This document shows positions 14,794-23,054 of a stretch of DNA of 64,000 bases, one piece after another; the first letter of the stretch is position 1; every line of letters begins with the position of its first letter. The notes under the pieces are model-generated. The model did no database searches, was not told the origin of the DNA, and saw nothing but the letters and a program-made list of their open reading frames with translations. The stretch spans positions 1 to 64,000 of the IMG/VR virus record IMGVR_UViG_3300036820_000007; one strand, written 5' to 3'. The translations under genes and the position numbers were made by a program. The DNA is from a virus.

Positions 14794-15069
14794 CTACAGC
14801 GTCTCGCCCCGCCCGTGGAAAGCCAGGCTGTTCCACGGCATCGTTGCCGTTGTTCCGCCGTCAAACTCCACGGTGACGAAACCGGGCTGCTGCGCGTGCT
14901 GATCGATGACTGTTCCCTCGTCGCCGCTCTTGCGCAGCGTGACGCGCGTCCCGTTCGGGATGAGGGCCGGCCGTTCCCCGCGCGGCCCGCGTGGGCCGGC
15001 GTGAAAGAAATGGCACACCGCGCAGTTGCCCGGATCGGTGCCGTCATCGGTGAACTCGTGAAGCCCCAC
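14794..15069 (-). CDS. hypothetical protein
   Basis: GTG after GAGAGGAG. Confidence 0.55.
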   Translation of the reverse strand: MGLHEFTDDGTDPGNCAVCHFFHAGPRGPRGERPALIPNGTRVTLRKSGDEGTVIDQHAQQPGFVTVEFDGGTTATMPWNSLAFHGRGETL

Positions 15070-15086
15070 AGCTGTACTCCTCTCGC

Positions 15087-15153
15087 TTGCCCTAGCGGGC
15101 AAGGAAACGGCCAGCACCGGTCAGGGTGCTGGCCCTTCGGCCAACTCGCTAGG
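15087..15153 (-). ncRNA. intergenic pseudoknot element
   Basis: CCUAGCG pairs with CGCUAGG; AGUU linker; 10-bp stem. Confidence 0.7.
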
Positions 15154-15382
15154 TCAGGCCGTCGCCGTTGGCGTCCGCGAGCATGATCAGCAGCTCAGCG
15201 ACGGTTGTCACGTCTGTGTAGCGGGTCACGGCGATGCCCGTGCGGTCCGCCAGGACACGCCGCAAGCCGGCCACGGTGTGACCGCCGAGCGACTGATCGA
15301 TCGCGGCGAAAACTGCGCTGGTCACTGCAAAGTGACCGTGAGCATTGGTCAGGCGCAAGATGCCGCGCTGCCTGTCGTTCAT
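15149..15382 (-). CDS. hypothetical protein, first gene of left-arm operon
   Basis: ATG after GAGAGGAG. Confidence 0.6.
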   Translation of the reverse strand: MNDRQRGILRLTNAHGHFAVTSAVFAAIDQSLGGHTVAGLRRVLADRTGIAVTRYTDVTTVAELLIMLADANGDGLT

Positions 15383-15394
15383 CGTTCTCCTCTC

Positions 15395-16028
15395 GATACC
15401 GGGCATGATCGCCCGTGAGAGCACTGAGCGGCGGTATCCGGAAGGCGATCCCCGGCCGCGCGCCTGCGAGTTAGCCCCTAGGCGATTCGCCTAGGCTCGG
15501 TGCGCCTCATGCCGCATGCTCAGTGCTCACACGGGAGCACCGGAACCGCAGGCACGTGCAAGTAGCTGCTTTCGCGCTCGCGGTTCCGGTGTCCCAGTTA
15601 GAGGAGTGCCGGCCATGTCAGGGTGCTGAGCATCGGGCGCTTTCGCGCCGGGAACTGCTCAGGATGCCGATGTGCTGACTCGCGCTTACCTTCCGGGATC
15701 GGTGTGCTGATCCTCGCGGTTTCCCCTATGCGGAAGGTCTTGCCTGACATGGCCGGCTGATCTCACCCGTACCGCTTACCGAGGCGGTACACCCGTCTCA
15801 GCAGTGCGGGCGAGAAGTCTTGTCTTGCTATGTCCCCGGAACGCCGGGGGTTCGGATACTTGCGGCTAGCCGGGACCGGGACACCCGCCAGGCTCTTAAC
15901 CCCTGGCGTCTCACCTTGTCGGCCCTTGCGGGGCGAATCCAGCTGGCGCGTGCTTCAGTTCTCTTGCCCAACCGTGACCCCTTGCGGGGCGGGGCGCCGG
16001 TGCCTGTCACTGCGTGTCCGGCCGATCG
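15395..16028 (-). ncRNA. candidate large structured RNA / 5' leader (~640 nt)
   Basis: Nested long helices (15608-15622 with 15743-15757, 15 bp; 15538-15549 with 15580-15591; 15412-15429 with 15518-15535); several GAAA/GCAA tetraloops on the minus strand; no credible ORF. Confidence 0.65.
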
Positions 16029-16034
16029 ATAGCT

Positions 16035-16062
16035 ACTTTACCCGGGGGTGGCCGAAGTGCAA
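16035..16062 (-). promoter_or_regulatory. sigmaA/HrdB-like promoter TTGCAC-16-TAAAGT
   Basis: Consensus-like hexamers directly upstream of the structured leader. Confidence 0.55.
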
Positions 16063-16489
16063 CCCGTTTTCGCGAAGTTTCTCTGAATCCCTTACGGCAT
16101 AGGGGTTTCTTGGCGTGGCGCCGGGCGTGTCGCTGCGGAGGTGTCTGGCTTGAGGTCAGATCGGCGCGATTTCGCGCGGGTGTGGGTGGGTGCTGAGCTC
16201 GCGTCTGCGCACGGTGGAGCTCAGCACCGTACCCAGCCATCGTGACCGGCATGAATGACCACCCGCCCGTCGGCAGGGTAGTCACATCTGACGTCAAGCG
16301 TTAACTTATGAGAATGAACCTTATCCGTAGTGCACGCGGGTGTCGGTGGGCAGCTACGGGGGATTGTCCGTTAGTATCACCCTATAGCCACTTTAAATAC
16401 CGCATAACCCCCCAAATTTACCCTCCGCGACCCTCAAAAATTTCGCGCATGGTGTTTTCCGCGCGCATATAGCCCCCCGGGAGCAAGGT

Positions 16490-16738
16490 GTGGACTTGGG
16501 CGGCATGACCCTGGTCCTTCCATTCGATTCCGATGAGGCCGAATTCCGCCGTGGTGTCGAAGTTGGCATGCTCTGGACCATGGTGCGTGAGCGCGAGCCT
16601 GCGCCGGCGGCCATGATGATCCACTCCGATAACGCGGAGATGGTGATCCGGATCGCGGAGGCATGCGAGCTTCCGTTCACAGCGGCCCCGGCCAGCGAGG
16701 ACTGGCTTTACATCACGATCGGCCCGAAGGCACCCTGA
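16490..16738 (+). CDS. hypothetical protein
   Basis: ORF with phage-like codon usage. Confidence 0.55.
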   Translation: MDLGGMTLVLPFDSDEAEFRRGVEVGMLWTMVREREPAPAAMMIHSDNAEMVIRIAEACELPFTAAPASEDWLYITIGPKAP

Positions 16739-16821
16739 CCACTTCAGCAGGCCCGTGCGTGCATGTAGCGTTCTCAGGTCACGATGGCCCCAGCGGAGGC
16801 CTAATAGCCTCTGGGCTATCG

Positions 16822-17109
16822 CTAGATGCTGCCGTGCATGCCCGTGAACACGATCAGTGGCCAGGGCCCCGGCTCTCGCCATGATCCGTCGGCCATGAAG
16901 CCCCACGCCCAGTTCTGGATGTAGCCGCAGCCGCAGTGCCAGCCATCTTCGGCGGCCTGCAGTACCTCGCGCCCGGCGAGATGATCCGGCCCCCTGCAGT
17001 CTTCATTGCCGCAAGTGAACGGATGCCCAGCGCCGGAGTGCTGGTAGCCGTTCAGGCTCTCCACCTGGGCGGCTGTGAACGGGGCCAGCGCCCGGATGCC
17101 AGTGCTCAT
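16822..17109 (-). CDS. hypothetical Cys/His protein (HPFTC...WHCGCGYIQNWAW)
   Basis: Conserved-looking phage small protein. Confidence 0.6.
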   Translation of the reverse strand: MSTGIRALAPFTAAQVESLNGYQHSGAGHPFTCGNEDCRGPDHLAGREVLQAAEDGWHCGCGYIQNWAWGFMADGSWREPGPWPLIVFTGMHGSI

Positions 17110-17147
17110 GCTCCCCATCTTCCCTGATGACAGCCGGGGGTGCGCCC

Positions 17148-17774
17148 ATGCCCCGTCGCCGCACCATGTCCGGCCGCAAGGTGGAGCAGGCCCAGATCGA
17201 CGCGAAGGCCGCCGAGCTCGCGGTCCAGGGCCTGACGATGACGCAGATCTCCCAGCGGATGGGCTGGGCAAGCCCGTCTACGGCGAGCACGGCGATCAAC
17301 CGGCACCTGGCCCGGTCGGCTGAACCGGTCAACGAGGCTCTGAGACGCCTGTGGGGCCACCGGATCGAGGAGAGCGTGAAAGTGGTCTGGGAGGCCATGC
17401 ACGCGGAGAACCTGGTGGTCAGCCAGGGCAAGGTGGTCAGCGATCCGAGGACCGACGAACCGCTGATCGACCGGGACCCGAATGTGCGGGCCGCGGACAC
17501 GATGATGCGGCTGGGGGAGCGGGCGTCGAGGCTGTTCGGGCTGGACGCGCCGAAGAAGACGGTCACCCTGACGGTCGACATGATGCGCTCCGAGCTCATG
17601 GAGCTGGGCGGCAAGCTCGGGTTCGACGATCCCCTCAGCGTGGCGAACGCCCTCGCGGAAGCTTCGGCGCTGCAGATCGCGGAGGCGGGCGGGGGAGCGG
17701 TCCCAGAGCCTGCGGACGTCGTCGAGGGCGAGATCGTGGAAGACAGGCCACAGGGCGTGCAGGGAGACGGATGA
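17148..17774 (+). CDS. terS: terminase small subunit (N-terminal HTH)
   Basis: HTH (GLTMTQISQRMGW), RLFGLDAPKK motif, position upstream of terL. Confidence 0.7.
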   Translation: MPRRRTMSGRKVEQAQIDAKAAELAVQGLTMTQISQRMGWASPSTASTAINRHLARSAEPVNEALRRLWGHRIEESVKVVWEAMHAENLVVSQGKVVSDPRTDEPLIDRDPNVRAADTMMRLGERASRLFGLDAPKKTVTLTVDMMRSELMELGGKLGFDDPLSVANALAEASALQIAEAGGGAVPEPADVVEGEIVEDRPQGVQGDG

Positions 17775-18037
17775 CCGAACTGGTACATATCGCAGGCACT
17801 CAGGTCCAGGCTGGCTCGCGACTCCGCCAGCGATGCTCATGGTGCGGCACGATGCTCTGCGATTATGACCTTGAGCGCGTCGCGGTACCCGCCGGCCAGG
17901 ATCCGCGACCGGCGTTGTGGGAAACAGGCACGCTGGTTGCAGTGAACGGGAACGTCTCCTGGGTGGTCGAGCACGAGGACGGTGACGAGATCCCGGGCAG
18001 CGCCTGCGCGCGGCTCGACGATGCAGTGACGGCTTAG
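17771..18037 (+). CDS. hypothetical protein
   Basis: ATG overlaps terS stop; CSWC. Confidence 0.6.
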   Translation: MTELVHIAGTQVQAGSRLRQRCSWCGTMLCDYDLERVAVPAGQDPRPALWETGTLVAVNGNVSWVVEHEDGDEIPGSACARLDDAVTA

Positions 18038-18293
18038 GGTGGCCCGGGCGGTACCCACTCCTCCTGGTAGCCGGGCCGGCGCCGGTATCCCGAGGCGAGC
18101 AGGCGTACGGTCCGGCAATAGCCGTAGCCTTTGACGCCGCCCTGGCCGTAGCAGTGGCAGGTCACGCATCCATGATCCTAGTTTGCGCCGCCGATGGAGA
18201 CGACGGAATAGCCCCCGTACGCCTCGCTCGCGCCGTGGCGCCAGAGGATGTAGTGGATGTAGTGGATGTAGTGCTCATCCAGGATGGCCAGTT
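18034..18293 (-). pseudogene. DUF6221-like gene, C-terminal half
   Basis: LAILDEH...YCRTVRLLASGYRRRPGYQEEW; in-frame TAG at 18178-18180; 9-bp repeat x3 at 18247-18273. Confidence 0.75.
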
Positions 18294-18823
18294 TGATGAC
18301 AACTGGATGAACAGCCCGTCTTGAGGTCAGGGCGGTCTTCGACCCCAGGGTGATTCCCCAGGCGAAATCGCGTCGGGTCCGCGTCTTCAAGCGCCTGGCT
18401 TATATCGAACATGCTGTAGCCGTGAAGACCTTCGATCCTGCTCTTGACGTCGTCGCTCAGGTTGCCGTAAGCCCACACGCTGTCGACAAAGGCGGCAGGA
18501 GGGGAGGTCGGGGAGACTTCGAGGGCATACAGGCATGTCCCCGGGGCGACGCTCTTGCCGTACGCGCCGTCAGCGTGAAACAGCAGACGGCGGGTACCAG
18601 CAAAGCTCGGATTGTCGGGGATGGCGTTGGACATGTACTCCACCGTTCCGCCCCACGGGAAAGTATGCAGCTCACCCAGTGCTTGCGTGCCAGCGGACTG
18701 AGCCACCGCAGGCTGACAGCGGTGGCTCCCTGACCGAACCGCACACTTGCCTGGGCTGGGGTCTGGGCGATAACCACCGCCTGACAGCGCACCAGCGCTA
18801 TCTGCAAGCCCCCTGAGCAGCAC
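18294..18823 (-). pseudogene. TauD/TfdA-family Fe(II)/2-oxoglutarate dioxygenase remnant
   Basis: FHADGAY (HxD), FVDSVWAY, frameshifted AVHPVVIK truncated at the junction. Confidence 0.65.
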
Positions 18824-19073
18824 GAAACCCGTCCGCCACGCCAGGAAAGAGATCCAGGGCCCATGGAACCCCGTCCACCTGGCCCGCCAACGGGGCTGGT
18901 GTCATACCCTGGCCCTAAAGTCGGGCCCGGCCCGGGGTCCGCCCGCCATCTAGCGCCAGCCTTCAGCACCCGGGAAGTTCAGAGCTAGTATGGCTGCGCT
19001 CAGCTGGCCAGAAGGTCACCATGCACGGCGTATACTGCGTGGGCCCACGGGCTCGAACTAATCGGGAGTGCTT

Positions 19074-20954
19074 GTGCGATTGCTGATGATTCACGCCGAC
19101 CGCTTCTCCTTCGAGATTACCGGAAGAAGCAAGGCTACAGAATTAGCGAGCGCGCTTGCCCCTACTGAGGAGTCCGCGCAGGTCAAAGAGGTGCTCGTAA
19201 CTTTCGTCAGCGCTGAGAAAACGGATGAAGCCGCCCCCCGCGATGTCGCCGTCGAGGCCGCAAGCCGCATTCGTGAGACGGCTGGCAAGGTGGGAACGAA
19301 CCGCCTCATGGTCTACCCCTACGCGCACCTTTCGAGCAGTCTTGCCCGGCCAAGAATTGCCTCCGAGATCATTGATACACTCGTTGGCCAACTGCGGGCG
19401 GACCACAACTTTGAAACACACAGAGCACCGTTCGGCTTCTACAAGTCTTTCGATATAGCCGGTAAGGGGCATCCGCTCTCGGAACTGGCTATGACGATCG
19501 TTCCTCCTGAGACCGGGGAAGCGTCGGAGGACCCGTCCGTTACGGAGTCGCGCGCCCTCGCGGCTGAGAAGACTCTTGAATCTGAGTGGCGCATCTACCA
19601 GGCCGATGGCTCATTCGTTCTGGCCGACGAGTTCAACTTCCGCACGGACCAAGGGCTACGCGACCTCTACGCCTATGAGCGTGAGGGCACCCGCATCGCA
19701 GAGGACGCGCCACCTCACATCAGACTCATGCGCGAGCATGAACTCGTCGACTACGAGCCAGCCTCGGACGCAGGGAATCTCCGCTGGTATCCCAAAGGAT
19801 TGCTCGTCAAGCGCCTCCTAGAGCAACACATAACGCGGATGGTTCTCGACTACGGCGCCATGGAAGTCGAGACGCCGATCATGTATGACTACAATTACCC
19901 GGCGCTCCGCAAGTACCTGCAGCGCTTCCCGGCCCGGCAGTATGTCGTCAAGAGTGACGACAAGGACCTCTTCCTACGGTTCGCTGCCTGCTTCGGGCAA
20001 TACATGATCCAACATGACATGGTCACATCGCATCACGACCTCCCGGTTAGGCTATATGAGCTCACACATTTCTCCTTCAGGCGGGAGCAGGGGGGCGAAA
20101 TCGCGGGGTTGCGCCGTCTGCGGGCTTTCACCATGCCGGATATGCACAGTCTCGTGAGCGACATGGAGATGGCCAAGGAGGAATTTCTCAAGCAGGTCCA
20201 ACTGTGCTTGCGATGGCTGGATGATCTGGACCTGTCGTGTGTCCCCGCGATCCGCTTCGTGCGTTCCTTCCTAGGCGAGCACCCGGGGTTTGTAGAGGAT
20301 CTGATGCGGGCCCTTGGCCGTCCCGCCCTCATCGAGGTGTGGGACGACCGCTTCTTTTACTTCGTCGCCAAGTTTGAGATGAATTTCATCGACGCCGCGA
20401 AGAAGGCCGCCTGCCTGTCCACCGTGCAGATCGACGTCGAGAATACCGACCGGTTCGACATCAATTACGTGGCCGAGGATGGCCAGAAGCGGCACCCGCT
20501 CCTCATGCACACCTCGGTCTCCGGATCTCTCGACCGGAACGTCTATGCGATCCTGGAAACCCAGGCGATGCGCATGTCGCGCGGTGAGAAGGGCGCCTGG
20601 CCGGTGTGGATGGCACCGATCCAAGTCCGTCTGGTGCCCGTCACTGACAATCACATCCAAGGTGCCCTGCGCTTGGCGGAGGAAATTCCCTTCCGGGTTG
20701 ACGTTGACGACAGAGACGTCAAGCTGGGGAAGAAAATTCGTGACGCGGAGAAGGAGTGGATTCCGTACACGCTTGTGGTGGGCGAGAAAGAACTCTCTGG
20801 GGGCACCCTGACGGTCCGGCCACGCCTAGGCGCGCAGGAGGAGATGCCGGTCGCCTCCTTTATCGAGAGGCTAGCGACTGAGACGGTCGGGCGGCCGGAG
20901 CGGCCGGCCAACACGCCGCGCCTACTATCGCGGCGCCCCATCTTCGTCGGCTGA
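19074..20954 (+). CDS. thrS: threonyl-tRNA synthetase, archaeal type
   Basis: Archaeal editing domain (MRLLMIHAD, YPYAHLSS, APFGFYK, KGHPLSEL); class II core with RFAAC, FRREQ, FTMPDMH, HTSVSGS; anticodon-binding domain. Confidence 0.93.
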   Translation: MRLLMIHADRFSFEITGRSKATELASALAPTEESAQVKEVLVTFVSAEKTDEAAPRDVAVEAASRIRETAGKVGTNRLMVYPYAHLSSSLARPRIASEIIDTLVGQLRADHNFETHRAPFGFYKSFDIAGKGHPLSELAMTIVPPETGEASEDPSVTESRALAAEKTLESEWRIYQADGSFVLADEFNFRTDQGLRDLYAYEREGTRIAEDAPPHIRLMREHELVDYEPASDAGNLRWYPKGLLVKRLLEQHITRMVLDYGAMEVETPIMYDYNYPALRKYLQRFPARQYVVKSDDKDLFLRFAACFGQYMIQHDMVTSHHDLPVRLYELTHFSFRREQGGEIAGLRRLRAFTMPDMHSLVSDMEMAKEEFLKQVQLCLRWLDDLDLSCVPAIRFVRSFLGEHPGFVEDLMRALGRPALIEVWDDRFFYFVAKFEMNFIDAAKKAACLSTVQIDVENTDRFDINYVAEDGQKRHPLLMHTSVSGSLDRNVYAILETQAMRMSRGEKGAWPVWMAPIQVRLVPVTDNHIQGALRLAEEIPFRVDVDDRDVKLGKKIRDAEKEWIPYTLVVGEKELSGGTLTVRPRLGAQEEMPVASFIERLATETVGRPERPANTPRLLSRRPIFVG

Positions 20955-21173
20955 TCGACCCTTAACCATCTTTGGTCGCGAGAATTGTGGACGTTTGCGT
21001 CAAGTTTCATGCGGCGGAAGAGATTCGCGCGCTCTGAACCCTTGGGCTCTTGATTCTCTATTAGCGCAGGTTGCTGTCTGCCTGCGGCTAAGGGATCGCG
21101 ACTGCCGCCGCGTTCGGTCCCAGCGTTCGGTCCCAGCGGCAGTGACCAGCACCGAACCATCCAGTAGCCGACG

Positions 21174-21411
21174 GTTCCGCTTCGCACCGGGCCAGGGCTG
21201 AGAGCGGCTCATTCTGGGCTATGTGCGCTGCAGCGTAACCGCCGACGCACACGGCGACCGGCCTGCTGCCCCCGTCGCGGATGCCGGTGCCCCACGCCCA
21301 GTCCTCATCATCGACATGCCAGGCGCCGCCCTCGCGGAGGACCTTCGGGCCCGCGGCCCGCTTGCCGGTTTCGATCTGTTCCCGCAGCCACGTCGCCAGT
21401 GCGTCGCTCAC
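21174..21411 (-). pseudogene. DUF6221-like gene, N-terminal half
   Basis: LATWLREQIE...HIAQNEPLSALARCEAE, then sequence switches at the junction. Confidence 0.75.
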
Positions 21412-21437
21412 GCCCTCCATCCTGCCAGGAGGTGAGC

Positions 21438-23054
21438 GTGAGCGAGCCGCCTGCCGACCCGCTGGCTCTCGAACGGTTCCGGATCCTGGCGCAGCTGTAC
21501 GCGGCCCGCCAGCGCTCCGAGCAGGTGTCCAGCACCCTGGCGGGGTATCTGGACGACCCGCTCGCCTTCATCGACAACTGCGTGGTGTTCCGCCCGGGTG
21601 GCGGCCTGACGGCTTACCAGCGGGAGATCATCGAAAGCCTGGTGACGAAGAAACGGGTCGCCGTCCGGGGACCGCACGGCCTTGGGAAGACTACGACCAG
21701 CGCACTGATCATCTTGTGGTTCAGCCTGACCCGGGAAGCAGCTGGCAGGGACTGGAAGTGCGTGGCCACGGCGGGCGGCTGGCGGCAGCTCGAGCACTAC
21801 CTGTTCCCGGAGATCCGCAAGTGGGCTAAACGGCTGAACTGGGAGGCCCTGGAGCGCCCGCCGCTGGATGAGCGCAGCGAGATGATGCGGCTGAACCTGA
21901 AGCTCCGGCACGGGGAAGCCTTCGCCGCGGCCTCGGATAAGCCCGAACTGATCGAGGGCGCGCACGCCGACTCGATCCTGTACGTCTTCGACGAGTCAAA
22001 AGCGATCATCGCCGACACGTTCGACGCGGCAGAGGGCGCGTTCTCGGGCCAGGAGGCCGACGAAGGGCTCGAGGCCTATGCGCTGGCCATGTCGACCCCC
22101 GGCGAGCCGTCGGGGCGGTTTTACGAGATCCACCGGCATGCTCCGGGCCTGGAGGACTGGCACACCCGGCATGTGACGCTCGAGGAAGCGATCGCCGCCC
22201 GGCGGGTGTCCAGGAAGTGGGCTGAGCAGCGTGCAAGACAGTGGGGGACCACTACCGCCGTCTATAACAACCGCGTCCTCGGGGAATTCTGGAGCTCGGA
22301 TGAGGACGCGCTCGTACCGCTGTCGTGGATAGAGGCCGCGCAGGAGCGCTGGCAGGCCTGGGTGGACGACGGTCGGCCGGAGCAGCCCGCGCCGCACATG
22401 ATCGGCGTGGACGTAGCCAGACAAGGTGTAGACAAAACGGTCTTCGCCATCCGCGAGGGGTTCATCATCCGGGAACTGCGCACCAGCGTGCGCGAGGACA
22501 CGATGGCGACCACCGGGCGCGTCAAGGGGCTGCTCGAGGCCGACCAGGATGCTACGGCCATTGTCGACGTGATCGGGATTGGTGCTGGAGTAGTCGACCG
22601 CCTGCGCGAGATGAACATGCGGGTGGAGCCGTTCACTGCCTCGGCAGGGACCAAGCGCCGGGACGCATCGGGCGAACTGGGATTTTCCAACCTCCGAAGT
22701 GCGGCCGCGTGGAACGCCAGGGAACTGCTTGACCCGGCGCGTAATGCCAAACTGGCCCTTCCTCCCGATGATGAACTGCTTGGCGACCTGACGTCAATTC
22801 ACTGGAAGCCGATGTCGGGCGGCAAAATTCAGATCGAGAGCAAGGATGATATCCGCAAGCGCATCGGCCGTTCAACCGACCGGGCCGACGCGGTTATGTA
22901 TGCCCTGTGGGGAACAGGCGTTTCATGGCTGGATGCATATAACGTAATGGTGTGCGAACATTGCGACCGTGGCTTTGTGCGCAAGCCGGACCGCAATAAG
23001 TGCCCGCACTGCAAAAAGATTATTGACAATGACCTCGAAATCGAAAGCGCTTAG
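21438..23054 (+). CDS. terL: terminase large subunit
   Basis: Walker A GPHGLGKT, Walker B YVFDE, nuclease GVDVAR and DRADA, C-terminal Zn ribbon. Confidence 0.92.
   Translation: MSEPPADPLALERFRILAQLYAARQRSEQVSSTLAGYLDDPLAFIDNCVVFRPGGGLTAYQREIIESLVTKKRVAVRGPHGLGKTTTSALIILWFSLTREAAGRDWKCVATAGGWRQLEHYLFPEIRKWAKRLNWEALERPPLDERSEMMRLNLKLRHGEAFAAASDKPELIEGAHADSILYVFDESKAIIADTFDAAEGAFSGQEADEGLEAYALAMSTPGEPSGRFYEIHRHAPGLEDWHTRHVTLEEAIAARRVSRKWAEQRARQWGTTTAVYNNRVLGEFWSSDEDALVPLSWIEAAQERWQAWVDDGRPEQPAPHMIGVDVARQGVDKTVFAIREGFIIRELRTSVREDTMATTGRVKGLLEADQDATAIVDVIGIGAGVVDRLREMNMRVEPFTASAGTKRRDASGELGFSNLRSAAAWNARELLDPARNAKLALPPDDELLGDLTSIHWKPMSGGKIQIESKDDIRKRIGRSTDRADAVMYALWGTGVSWLDAYNVMVCEHCDRGFVRKPDRNKCPHCKKIIDNDLEIESA

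What the first reader, a model, noticed from the sequence alone, without database searches (positions are those of the whole stretch)
19074..20954. Intact archaeal-type threonyl-tRNA synthetase between terS and terL
Seen: a full-length ThrRS with the archaeal DTD-like editing domain rather than the bacterial TGS/SAD domains, Zn ligands intact and its own RBS, while both neighbours are decayed. Established: aaRS genes are rare in phages of this size, and extra ThrRS copies can confer resistance to ThrRS inhibitors (borrelidin, obafluorin). Inference: captured from a bacterial biosynthetic or resistance locus (adjacent TauD-like dioxygenase). It may be kept as a lysogenic-conversion gene or to protect translation against inhibitors or Thr analogues.
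Basis: partly seen in the sequence, partly recalled or inferred. Interest (0 to 1): 0.78.

Follow-up and report, generated by a model that had tools for sequence, protein, structure and literature searches.

The report
Host-derived archaeal-type ThrRS in soil actinophage
A temperate soil phage of actinobacteria carries a complete, apparently working threonyl-tRNA synthetase that it took from an actinobacterial chromosome together with a scrap of the neighbouring dioxygenase gene. This is an unusual cargo for a 98-kb phage, and its benefit (inhibitor-insensitive or extra tRNA charging) is still untested.

Summary
Window 19074-20954 (+) encodes a full-length archaeal-type ThrRS with a DTD-like editing domain, class II core and anticodon domain. 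Zn ligands, motif 2/3 arginines and editing residues are all present.

The record is a real 98.5-kb tailed actinophage with a tyrosine integrase and no tRNA genes. Contigs from a second assembler bridge both junctions.

The gene is part of a ~3-kb block (about 18178-21174) that splits a small DUF6221-like phage gene lying between the probable terS and terL. The block also holds an internal fragment of a TauD-family dioxygenase. terS and terL are intact; the decayed neighbours are the TauD fragment and the split DUF6221 gene.

In a tree the phage ThrRS nests deep inside an actinobacterial clade of "archaeal-type" ThrRS. It is 93% and 90% identical to metagenome copies, and the 90% one sits in a chromosomal context. 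dN/dS is 0.085 and the phage branch is not accelerated.

This ThrRS type occurs in about 1% of Pseudonocardiaceae genomes, as an extra copy or apparently the only ThrRS. It is linked to the same TauD subfamily. Positions that contact borrelidin carry the archaeal, insensitive-type residues.

Capture from a bacterial TauD-ThrRS locus is supported. A resistance or lysogenic-conversion role is plausible but untested.

The parts
17127..17774 (+). Probable small terminase (HTH protein), intact, 215 aa
   Evidence: High-GC3 ORF. PHROG 645 at 1e-18. A homologue lies upstream of terL in the related viral contig L162. Weak similarity (E 1e-4) to gp1 of Streptomyces phage TurkishDelight, which directly precedes its terminase. 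The terS role is inferred from position and the HTH.
17771..18037 (+). Small 88-aa ORF of unknown function with a CxxC motif, overlapping the terS stop
   Evidence: Translation. No Pfam hit.
18034..18177 (-). C-terminal fragment of a split DUF6221-like phage gene
   Evidence: Pfam DUF6221 positions 102-122 of 122, E 2.9e-6, 28.4 bits, above the cut-off. It matches the C-terminus of the intact DUF6221-like gene upstream of terL in L165.
18278..18688 (-). Internal fragment of a TauD/TfdA-family Fe(II)/2OG dioxygenase (pseudogene), part of the inserted block
   Evidence: Pfam TauD positions 64-161 of 267, E 1.8e-6. 85% identity to residues 38-174 of the full-length 258-aa TauD P0258, with nothing matching residues 1-37 or 175-258 in that frame. 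54% identity to the TauD of G549.
19014..19073 (+). Upstream stretch carried over with thrS: -10-like TATACT (19031-19036) and RBS GGGAG (19064-19068)
   Evidence: Nucleotide homology to chromosomal contigs L082 and L083 starts at 19014. TATACT aligns with TATGCT in L083. Sequence. Promoter function is inferred.
19074..20954 (+). Archaeal-type threonyl-tRNA synthetase, intact (alternative starts at 19068 and 19086)
   Evidence: for domains and catalytic residues. for the tree. for constraint.
20958..21174 (.). Right-hand remainder of the inserted block. Origin unknown. Holds a 13-nt tandem duplication at 21112-21137
   Evidence: Homology to bacterial thrS loci ends at 20957. No match in any fetched locus. 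No Rfam family.
21175..21420 (-). N-terminal fragment of the split DUF6221-like gene
   Evidence: P0136 matches Pfam DUF6221 positions 2-72 of 122, E 4e-5, below the cut-off.
21438..23054 (+). Large terminase, intact. Start GTG 21438 behind AGGAGG at 21427-21432
   Evidence: PHROG 2 terminase large subunit, 1e-37. 53% identity to the terminases of Streptomyces phage TurkishDelight and Actinoplanes phage phiAsp2. Relatives are 520-556 aa. Sequence.

Best explanation
A temperate siphovirus-like actinophage from soil acquired a ~3-kb piece of actinobacterial chromosome. The phage genome is about 98 kb. Its terL is 53% identical to those of Streptomyces phage TurkishDelight and Actinoplanes phage phiAsp2.

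The piece landed, probably by illegitimate recombination, in a small non-essential DUF6221-like gene between terS and terL. It carried a divergent gene pair: a TauD-like dioxygenase and thrS. Only an internal fragment of the dioxygenase remains. thrS is complete, with about 60 nt of its native upstream region including the RBS and a -10-like hexamer.

The product is most likely an active homodimeric class II ThrRS of the archaeal type. That type has a cis editing domain that clears Ser-tRNAThr. It would charge the host's tRNAThr, as its relatives apparently do as the sole ThrRS in some Pseudonocardiaceae.

In an infected or lysogenised cell it would add a second ThrRS activity. Its active-site pocket carries the archaeal residues that published work links to borrelidin insensitivity. 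The most likely benefit is therefore to keep Thr-tRNA charging going when the resident ThrRS is inhibited or limiting.

Shown here: the gene's integrity, its phage location, its bacterial origin, the linkage to TauD, and purifying selection. Inferred: enzyme activity, expression, and the benefit.
For: Phage identity: terL, a portal fusion, head-tail adaptor, tail fibres and tape measure. Tyrosine integrase at 95622-96134 of the record. Relatives sit on contigs of about 90-98 kb.

Junctions: in the best-holding soil run, which is probably the source sample, a 10.7-kb Logan contig covers 15000-19754 and a 2.1-kb contig covers 20168-22251, both with 0 differences. The two flanks are halves of one DUF6221-like gene, which argues against a chimeric join inside thrS.

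Origin: homology to chromosomal contigs L082 and L083 is 86.6% nt and 90% aa, and is limited to 19014-20957. L083 carries a SARP regulator, Opp-type ABC transporter genes, YccF and a GFO/IDH/MocA oxidoreductase. In the tree the phage copy is sister to P0002 (support 97). It lies inside a 6-row clade (100) and an 8-row clade with a Pseudonocardiaceae MAG (95). All of this sits within a 34-row actinobacterial clade (100) and a bacterial clade separate from archaea.

Constraint: dN/dS is 0.085 against L083, compared with 0.09-0.12 for bacterial pairs. The phage end branch is 0.047, against 0.037 and 0.058 for its nearest relatives. Only 1 private change falls in columns that are otherwise invariant, against 0-6 in the other homologues. 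All catalytic, Zn and editing residues are present.

Possible role: Fang et al. 2015 (PMC4389257) report that archaeal ThrRS resist borrelidin. They name Met for human Q460 and Ser for human A592, and say E. coli H309 and L489 mutations raise Ki 300-1000-fold. The phage enzyme has M356, S483, Y283 and N459 at those positions (mapped).

Accessory status: PF08915 occurs in 5 of 401 Pseudonocardiaceae genomes. In a phylum-wide sample of 401, the only full-length carrier was the search centre itself. This ThrRS co-exists with a canonical ThrRS in G002, G003 and G757. Its contexts include a DrrA-like ABC exporter with TauD (G549) and a ThrRS-like biosynthetic cluster (G757, M. qiuiae).
Against: No expression data: no RNA run holds the stretch. 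The consensus promoter and terminator scans found nothing useful.

Purifying selection cannot be assigned to the phage branch alone. If the capture was recent, intactness says little. thrS GC3 is 0.75, close to the 0.74 of the L083 copy, while most phage genes lie at about 0.8-0.9. That would fit a fairly recent arrival.

In G001, G750 and G549 only the archaeal-type ThrRS was found. The donor gene may therefore be plain housekeeping rather than a resistance gene, and in such a host the phage copy would add only dosage.

The phage has no tRNA genes. No second phage with this gene was found.
Confidence: 0.72

Rival explanations
1. Neutral passenger. The block was picked up recently by illegitimate recombination (a packaging or excision accident) and thrS is intact only because too little time has passed. 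It gives the phage and host nothing and will decay like the TauD fragment.
For: The insertion disrupts a phage gene and carries junk: an internal TauD fragment and about 480 nt of unassignable DNA. thrS keeps donor-like GC3 (0.75, against 0.74 in L083), below most phage genes. No other phage with this gene turned up in 50,697 phage records or in IMG/VR. A related phage in another soil run shows terS and terL but no thrS cover, which is a weak hint only.
Against: Within the same block TauD has lost both ends while thrS has no stop, no frameshift, and only 1 private change at otherwise invariant columns. Amino-acid change on the phage branch is not faster than in its cellular sisters. The block is trimmed to 3 nt past the thrS stop and about 60 nt upstream as far as bacterial homology goes. 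The phage genome is otherwise compact.
Confidence: 0.22
2. Assembly artefact or host flank. On this reading thrS belongs to a bacterial chromosome and was joined to phage DNA by mis-assembly, or it lies in host DNA beside a prophage.
For: In the Logan assembly the middle of thrS (19725-20197) breaks into short unitigs with raised depth. Another genome in the same sample therefore shares k-mers with it. The best-holding run is probably the source sample, so it is not independent data.
Against: Both thrS ends are joined to phage DNA in contigs from a second assembler with 0 differences. Depth is even, about 10-11 on either side. The flanks are the two halves of one phage DUF6221-like gene. Phage genes lie on both sides for tens of kb. 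A chimera would need two phage variants, each with an insertion in the same gene.
Confidence: 0.04
3. The protein is not a tRNA-charging enzyme here. Instead it would act as a biosynthetic or regulatory ThrRS paralogue, for example an aminoacyl-tRNA-dependent tailoring enzyme or a decoy.
For: ThrRS-like domains fused to an aminotransferase lie next to the archaeal-type thrS in G757. The same cluster lies on the same contig in M. qiuiae.
Against: The phage protein scores 740 bits on the thrS equivalog model (cut-off 484) and has all three domains and every catalytic and editing residue. Close relatives appear to be the only ThrRS in three genomes. The fused paralogues are only about 23-24% identical to it.
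Confidence: 0.02

Closest known systems
Archaeal threonyl-tRNA synthetase (NCBIfam NF003068/PRK03991; editing-domain structures from Pyrococcus abyssi, e.g. PDB 1y2q, 2hl0)
   Same: Same three-domain layout: DTD-like N-terminal editing domain, class II core with a Zn site, and HGTP anticodon domain. About 45-52% identity to archaeal proteins. The editing domain matches the P. abyssi structures at 1e-30.
   Different: It belongs to a bacterial offshoot of that family (Actinomycetota, Gemmatimonadota and others) that separates from archaea with full support. It is encoded by a phage.
Self-resistance ThrRS copies in antibiotic gene clusters: BorO (borrelidin, Streptomyces parvulus) and ObaO (obafluorin, Pseudomonas fluorescens)
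   Same: An additional ThrRS that could keep translation running in the presence of a ThrRS inhibitor. The pocket residues differ from sensitive bacterial enzymes (PMC4389257; bioRxiv 10.1101/704981, listed).
   Different: According to Fang et al., the S. parvulus enzyme differs from sensitive bacterial ThrRS at only 4 of 18 contact residues, so it reads as bacterial-type. The phage gene is archaeal-type and sits in no biosynthetic cluster. Resistance is inferred from sequence only.
Aminoacyl-tRNA synthetases of huge phages (Al-Shayeb et al. 2020, PMC7162821)
   Same: Host-related aaRS genes carried in phage genomes and thought to support or redirect translation.
   Different: Those phages are over 200 kb, carry up to 15 aaRS and many tRNAs, and are not described as temperate. 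This one is about 98 kb and temperate, with a single aaRS and no tRNA genes. In the phage collection searched, ThrRS hits were all bacterial-type cores at 48% identity or less, and none covered the editing domain.
Phage 'morons' and lysogenic-conversion cargo genes
   Same: A host-derived gene with its own upstream region, inserted between functional phage genes of a temperate phage.
   Different: The cargo is a core translation enzyme rather than a toxin, exclusion or surface-modification gene. It lies in the packaging module and disrupts a phage gene. Independent transcription has not been shown.

Membership tests
Archaeal-type ThrRS (NF003068) | N-terminal DTD-like editing domain (Pfam PF08915) in place of the TGS and SAD/N2 domains | tested here: met
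   PF08915 at 5e-39 over residues 4-144; no TGS or tRNA_SAD hit at E<=0.01. PDB editing-domain hits at 1e-30.
Archaeal-type ThrRS (NF003068) | Whole-protein score above the curated equivalog cut-off | tested here: met
   740.4 bits against a cut-off of 484; profile positions 2-612 of 613.
Archaeal-type ThrRS (NF003068) | Class II core with a Zn-binding Cys/His/His triad and motif 2/3 arginines | tested here: met
   C308, H360 and H481 align with the Zn ligands of E. coli and S. aureus ThrRS. R338/E340 and R490 are present. All are invariant in 22 homologues.
Archaeal-type ThrRS (NF003068) | Editing-site residues (His, Tyr-Lys, Glu of the P. abyssi domain; residue roles recalled from the literature) | tested here: met
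   H87, Y125, K126 and E139 are present and invariant or nearly invariant in alignment A1.
Archaeal-type ThrRS (NF003068) | Threonylation of tRNAThr and deacylation of Ser-tRNAThr | not testable with these tools
   Needs enzyme assays or complementation.
Inhibitor-resistant (self-resistance type) ThrRS | Substitutions at inhibitor-contact residues | tested here: met
   Y283, M356, N459 and S483 stand at the positions of E. coli H309, Q381, L489 and A513. This is the archaeal pattern described in PMC4389257. It is a prediction from sequence only.
Inhibitor-resistant (self-resistance type) ThrRS | Location in or beside a gene cluster that makes a ThrRS inhibitor | tested here: not met
   In the phage the neighbours are terS, terL, a TauD fragment and a split DUF6221 gene. 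Some cellular homologues lie by a ThrRS-like cluster or an ABC exporter; L083 does not.
Inhibitor-resistant (self-resistance type) ThrRS | Measured resistance conferred on a sensitive host | not testable with these tools
   Needs MIC or Ki measurements.
Phage-encoded auxiliary gene of host origin | Embedded in a bona fide phage genome, with junctions supported | tested here: met
   Phage structural genes and an integrase. Contigs from a second assembler bridge both junctions. The flanks are two halves of one phage gene.
Phage-encoded auxiliary gene of host origin | Nested within cellular homologues of the host group | tested here: met
   Tree. 86.6% nt identity to a chromosomal contig.
Phage-encoded auxiliary gene of host origin | Kept across related phages (evidence of selection in the phage) | tested here: inconclusive
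   No relative closer than 58% TerL identity was available in IMG/VR. No other phage ThrRS of this type was found.

The most novel reading that the evidence does not exclude
A temperate actinophage spreads a naturally inhibitor-insensitive (archaeal-type) ThrRS among soil actinomycetes. Lysogens with an ordinary bacterial ThrRS would become tolerant to borrelidin-like ThrRS inhibitors made by their neighbours. This would be phage-borne target-replacement resistance to a natural product, acting on a core translation enzyme.
Probability: 0.25. Interest if true: 0.75.

Novelty: new member of a known kind. Interest (0 to 1): 0.5.

Why it matters
Phage-borne aminoacyl-tRNA synthetases are known mainly from huge phages and giant viruses, where they come with many tRNAs. 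Here a mid-sized temperate actinophage carries one complete synthetase and nothing else from translation. The event can be read in detail: the donor-type locus (a TauD-thrS pair), the target (a split DUF6221 gene) and the boundaries.

The enzyme is of the type reported to be insensitive to borrelidin. It is a rare accessory gene in Actinomycetota, sometimes next to exporter or ThrRS-like biosynthetic genes. The case therefore offers a testable route by which target-replacement resistance to a natural product could move between antibiotic-producing soil bacteria. If the gene turns out to be a silent passenger, it is still a clean example of how phages sample host housekeeping genes.

Tried and rejected
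The contexts of the closest protein hits (P0002 at 93%, P0018, P0107, TauD P0258-P0270) could therefore not be read.
- Scans of IMG/VR for relatives of the ThrRS found nothing, either with the single protein or with an alignment. These are pattern-limited searches, so this is not proof of absence.
- Flanks of the insert (17775-19013, 20958-21438) matched none of about 180 fetched loci by blastn or tblastx, apart from the 51-nt DUF6221 tail in L165.
- No direct repeats or target-site duplication at the junctions. The only shared word is an inverted 9-mer (18139 / 21190) lying within the DUF6221 fragments.
- No RNA holder is listed for the stretch, so expression is unknown.
- Soil run X2 holds a related phage (terS about 92%, terL about 95% identical) with no cover over thrS, and its terS contig diverges after 17738. 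Contig holes prove nothing.
- Consensus promoter and terminator scan: nothing beyond chance.
- Rfam scan of 17700-21500: no family. The fold of 20950-21060 is no better than shuffles.
- No tRNA or tmRNA gene in the whole record.
- A haloarchaeal-virus origin was considered at first because of the high GC and acidic protein. It was rejected on the terL relatives and the tree.
- Two literature searches for archaeal-type ThrRS in bacteria and for prophage aaRS cargo gave nothing specific.
- Structure and complex prediction were not run, because sequence evidence already settled family membership.
Full report
**What the record is.** The window is the first 64 kb of a 98,488-bp IMG/VR virus record. 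The record is linear, CheckV estimates 83% completeness, and GC is about 0.67.

It is a genuine tailed phage:
- The ORF at 21438-23054 is a large terminase (PHROG 2, 1e-37). It is 53% identical to the terminases of Streptomyces phage TurkishDelight (93.6 kb, temperate) and Actinoplanes phage phiAsp2.
- Downstream lie a portal fusion, a head-tail adaptor, tail fibres and a tape measure.
- The record also encodes a tyrosine integrase at 95622-96134.
- It has no tRNA genes.
- Metagenomic terL relatives sit on contigs of about 90-98 kb, and one lies in a Streptomyces genome contig.

The host is therefore an actinobacterium and the phage is probably temperate.

**The observation.** The ORF 19068-20954 (+) has no stops.
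IMG used ATG 19086.
- Domains: Pfam finds the archaea-specific editing domain, the class II core and the HGTP anticodon domain, and no TGS or SAD. NCBIfam NF003068 scores 740 bits against a cut-off of 484.
- Catalytic residues: in the printed alignments to S. aureus and E. coli ThrRS, the Zn ligands align with C308, H360 and H481, motif 2 with R338/E340 and motif 3 with R490.
- Editing residues: H87, Y125, K126 and E139 are present. They are invariant or nearly so in 22 homologues.

Residue numbers count from 19068.

**The neighbours.**
- The gene upstream at 17127-17774 is an open 215-aa HTH protein. It hits PHROG 645, has a homologue upstream of terL in the related viral contig L162, and resembles weakly the protein that precedes the terminase in TurkishDelight. 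It is a probable terS and is not decayed.
- terL is full length.
- The decayed items are closer in. On the minus strand, 21175-21420 matches DUF6221 positions 2-72. 18034-18177 matches positions 102-122.
- 18034-18177 also matches the C-terminus of an intact DUF6221-like gene in the minus-strand block upstream of terL in contig L165.

A small phage gene has therefore been split by about 3 kb of foreign DNA, roughly 18178-21174. I confirmed the split but found no meaningful terminal repeats. Illegitimate recombination is therefore more likely than transposition.

**Content of the inserted block.** Besides thrS, the block holds an internal fragment of a TauD-family dioxygenase on the minus strand (18278-18688). 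It is 85% identical to residues 38-174 of a full-length 258-aa metagenome TauD (P0258). The first 37 and last 84 residues are missing. The remaining roughly 260 nt on the left and 217 nt on the right match nothing I could fetch.

**Is the assembly right?** Only one run holds the stretch well, and it is probably the source sample.
- Its Logan contigs, made by a different assembler, cover 15000-19754 and 20168-22251 without a single difference.
- Depth is even, about 10-11.
- The middle of thrS breaks into short unitigs with raised depth, so another genome in that soil shares k-mers with it.
- A chimeric join there is unlikely because the two flanks are halves of the same phage gene.

**Where the gene came from.**
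- Nucleotide homology to two chromosomal metagenome contigs (L082, L083) is 86.6% nt and 90% aa. It runs from 19014 to 20957 only.
- L083 carries a SARP regulator, Opp-type ABC transporter genes, YccF and a GFO/IDH/MocA oxidoreductase, so it is an actinobacterial chromosome.
- In a maximum-likelihood tree of 59 sequences, bacterial 'archaeal-type' ThrRS form a clade apart from archaea (support 100). Actinobacterial sequences form a 34-row clade (100).
- The phage protein is sister to metagenome protein P0002, which is 93% identical (support 97).
- The pair lies inside a six-row clade with L083 (100), next to a Pseudonocardiaceae MAG.

That MAG is G001/L002, which is unpublished. Four things rest on it: its placement in the tree, the dN/dS pairs involving L002, its use as centre of the family searches, and the statement that only the archaeal-type ThrRS was found in it.

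**Link between TauD and thrS.**
- TauD hits P0270, P0259 and P0263 come from contigs of exactly the same lengths (34,872; 14,511; 331,409) as ThrRS hits P0002, P0018 and P0107.
- Among 401 Pseudonocardiaceae genomes, this TauD subfamily was found in one (G549). G549 is one of the five that carry the archaeal-type thrS, and there the TauD lies 6 kb from it.

**Is the gene under constraint?**
- dN/dS against L083 is 0.085 (dS 0.57), as low as between bacterial copies at 0.09-0.12.
- The phage end branch (0.047) is no longer than those of P0002 (0.037) or L083 (0.058).
- The phage protein has one private change at columns otherwise invariant in 21 homologues, against 0-6 for the others.
- thrS keeps donor-like GC3 (0.75 against 0.74 in L083, while most phage genes lie at about 0.8-0.9).

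These figures fit a working gene. Because the GC3 is still donor-like, a recent capture cannot be excluded. That is why the passenger reading keeps about one chance in five.

**What the family does in bacteria.** It is rare.
- PF08915 was found in 5 of 401 Pseudonocardiaceae genomes.
- In a phylum-wide sample of 401, the only full-length carrier was the search centre itself. Five small genomes had free-standing editing domains.
- In G002 (Micromonospora qiuiae), G003 and G757 it co-exists with a canonical ThrRS. In G001, G750 and G549 it was the only ThrRS found. The enzyme can therefore evidently serve actinobacterial translation.
- Contexts differ from genome to genome. In G549 it lies by a DrrA-like ABC exporter and TauD. 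In G757 it lies directly beside a ThrRS-like fusion protein with two dioxygenases and a PLP enzyme. In M. qiuiae the same cluster has a remnant of an archaeal-type thrS 3' end and an extra bacterial-type ThrRS.

This pattern suggests a link with ThrRS-directed chemistry, but it does not prove a resistance role for the subclade that gave rise to the phage copy.

**Likely mechanism.** Fang et al. (PMC4389257) report three things. Archaeal ThrRS resist borrelidin. Met replaces human Q460 and Ser replaces human A592 in archaeal enzymes. Changes at E. coli H309 and L489 raise Ki 300-1000-fold. Mapping through the printed E. coli alignment, the phage enzyme has Y283, M356, N459 and S483 at these four positions, which is the archaeal pattern.

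The about 60 nt upstream that came with the gene hold the RBS and a -10-like TATACT. This aligns with TATGCT in L083, so transcription independent of the late operon is conceivable. The gene also lies in the same orientation as terS and terL.

My reading is that the phage supplies an additional, probably inhibitor-insensitive ThrRS to the cell it infects or lysogenises. The enzyme's activity, its expression and any benefit are inferred, not shown.

**Comparison with what is known.**
- Phage aaRS are documented in huge phages, which carry up to 15 synthetases and many tRNAs (PMC7162821).
- In 50,697 phage records, the only ThrRS matches were bacterial-type cores at 48% identity or less. None covered the editing domain. 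Several were tiny or unannotated records.
- Self-resistance ThrRS genes such as BorO and ObaO lie in producer clusters. By the description in PMC4389257, the S. parvulus enzyme is bacterial-type.

This case is a new member of the class 'host-derived translation gene in a phage', with an unusual enzyme type and phage size. It is not a new kind of system.

**Verdict.** Interest is moderate at 0.5. The most novel reading still open is phage-spread target-replacement resistance to ThrRS inhibitors, with a probability of about 0.25.

Noticed in passing
L195:10684-17826 (G757) and L197:2743-14758 (Micromonospora qiuiae contig C64): A conserved cluster. It holds a ~1000-aa fusion with a ThrRS-like class II core and anticodon domain (the N-part is a class I/II aminotransferase in M. 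qiuiae), a PF10014 2OG-Fe dioxygenase, a PhyH dioxygenase, a GFA protein and a Cys/Met-type PLP enzyme. In G757 the archaeal-type thrS abuts it. In M. qiuiae a 95-nt remnant of such a thrS and an extra bacterial-type ThrRS paralogue lie there. It looks like an uncharacterised biosynthetic cluster with spare ThrRS copies.
   Followed up: partly
L196:23-8683 (G549): Archaeal-type thrS, a 407-aa unknown protein, a DrrA-like ABC ATPase, two ABC-2 permeases and a full-length TauD lie in one 8.7-kb stretch. This TauD subfamily was found in only 1 of 401 genomes of the family.
   Followed up: partly
genomes G001, G750, G549: Only the archaeal-type ThrRS was detected, with no canonical bacterial thrS. 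The archaeal type may have displaced the native gene in some Pseudonocardiaceae. Genome completeness is unknown.
   Followed up: partly
L183-L187: Five small (~1.3-1.8 Mb) actinobacterial genomes encode free-standing tRNA-Thr_ED editing domains in open frames of 142-153 aa.
   Followed up: no
window 20968-21017: A ~50-nt stretch just after the thrS stop is matched by otherwise unrelated contigs in two other soil metagenomes, one at depth 23. It has no Rfam family and no significant fold.
   Followed up: partly
window 18247-18273 and 21112-21137: Short tandem repeats inside the inserted block: GATGTAGTG three times and GTTCGGTCCCAGC twice.
   Followed up: no
proteins P0138, P0144, P0176, P0183: Several close terL relatives are 878-938 aa, some with a LAGLIDADG_3 hit. 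These are terminases interrupted by inteins. The window's terL has none.
   Followed up: no
window 17148-17738 versus soil run X2: A related phage (terS ~92%, terL ~95% identical) exists in another soil metagenome. Its terS contig diverges from the window right after 17738, so the terS-terL interval is a variable region in this phage group.
   Followed up: no
L005:8001-9894 (G004) and G004:C9:590164-591360: In this 7.7-Mb MAG the archaeal-type thrS reads as two overlapping frames, either a frameshift or an assembly error. The other ThrRS match is a 435-aa frame covering only the catalytic and anticodon parts.
   Followed up: no
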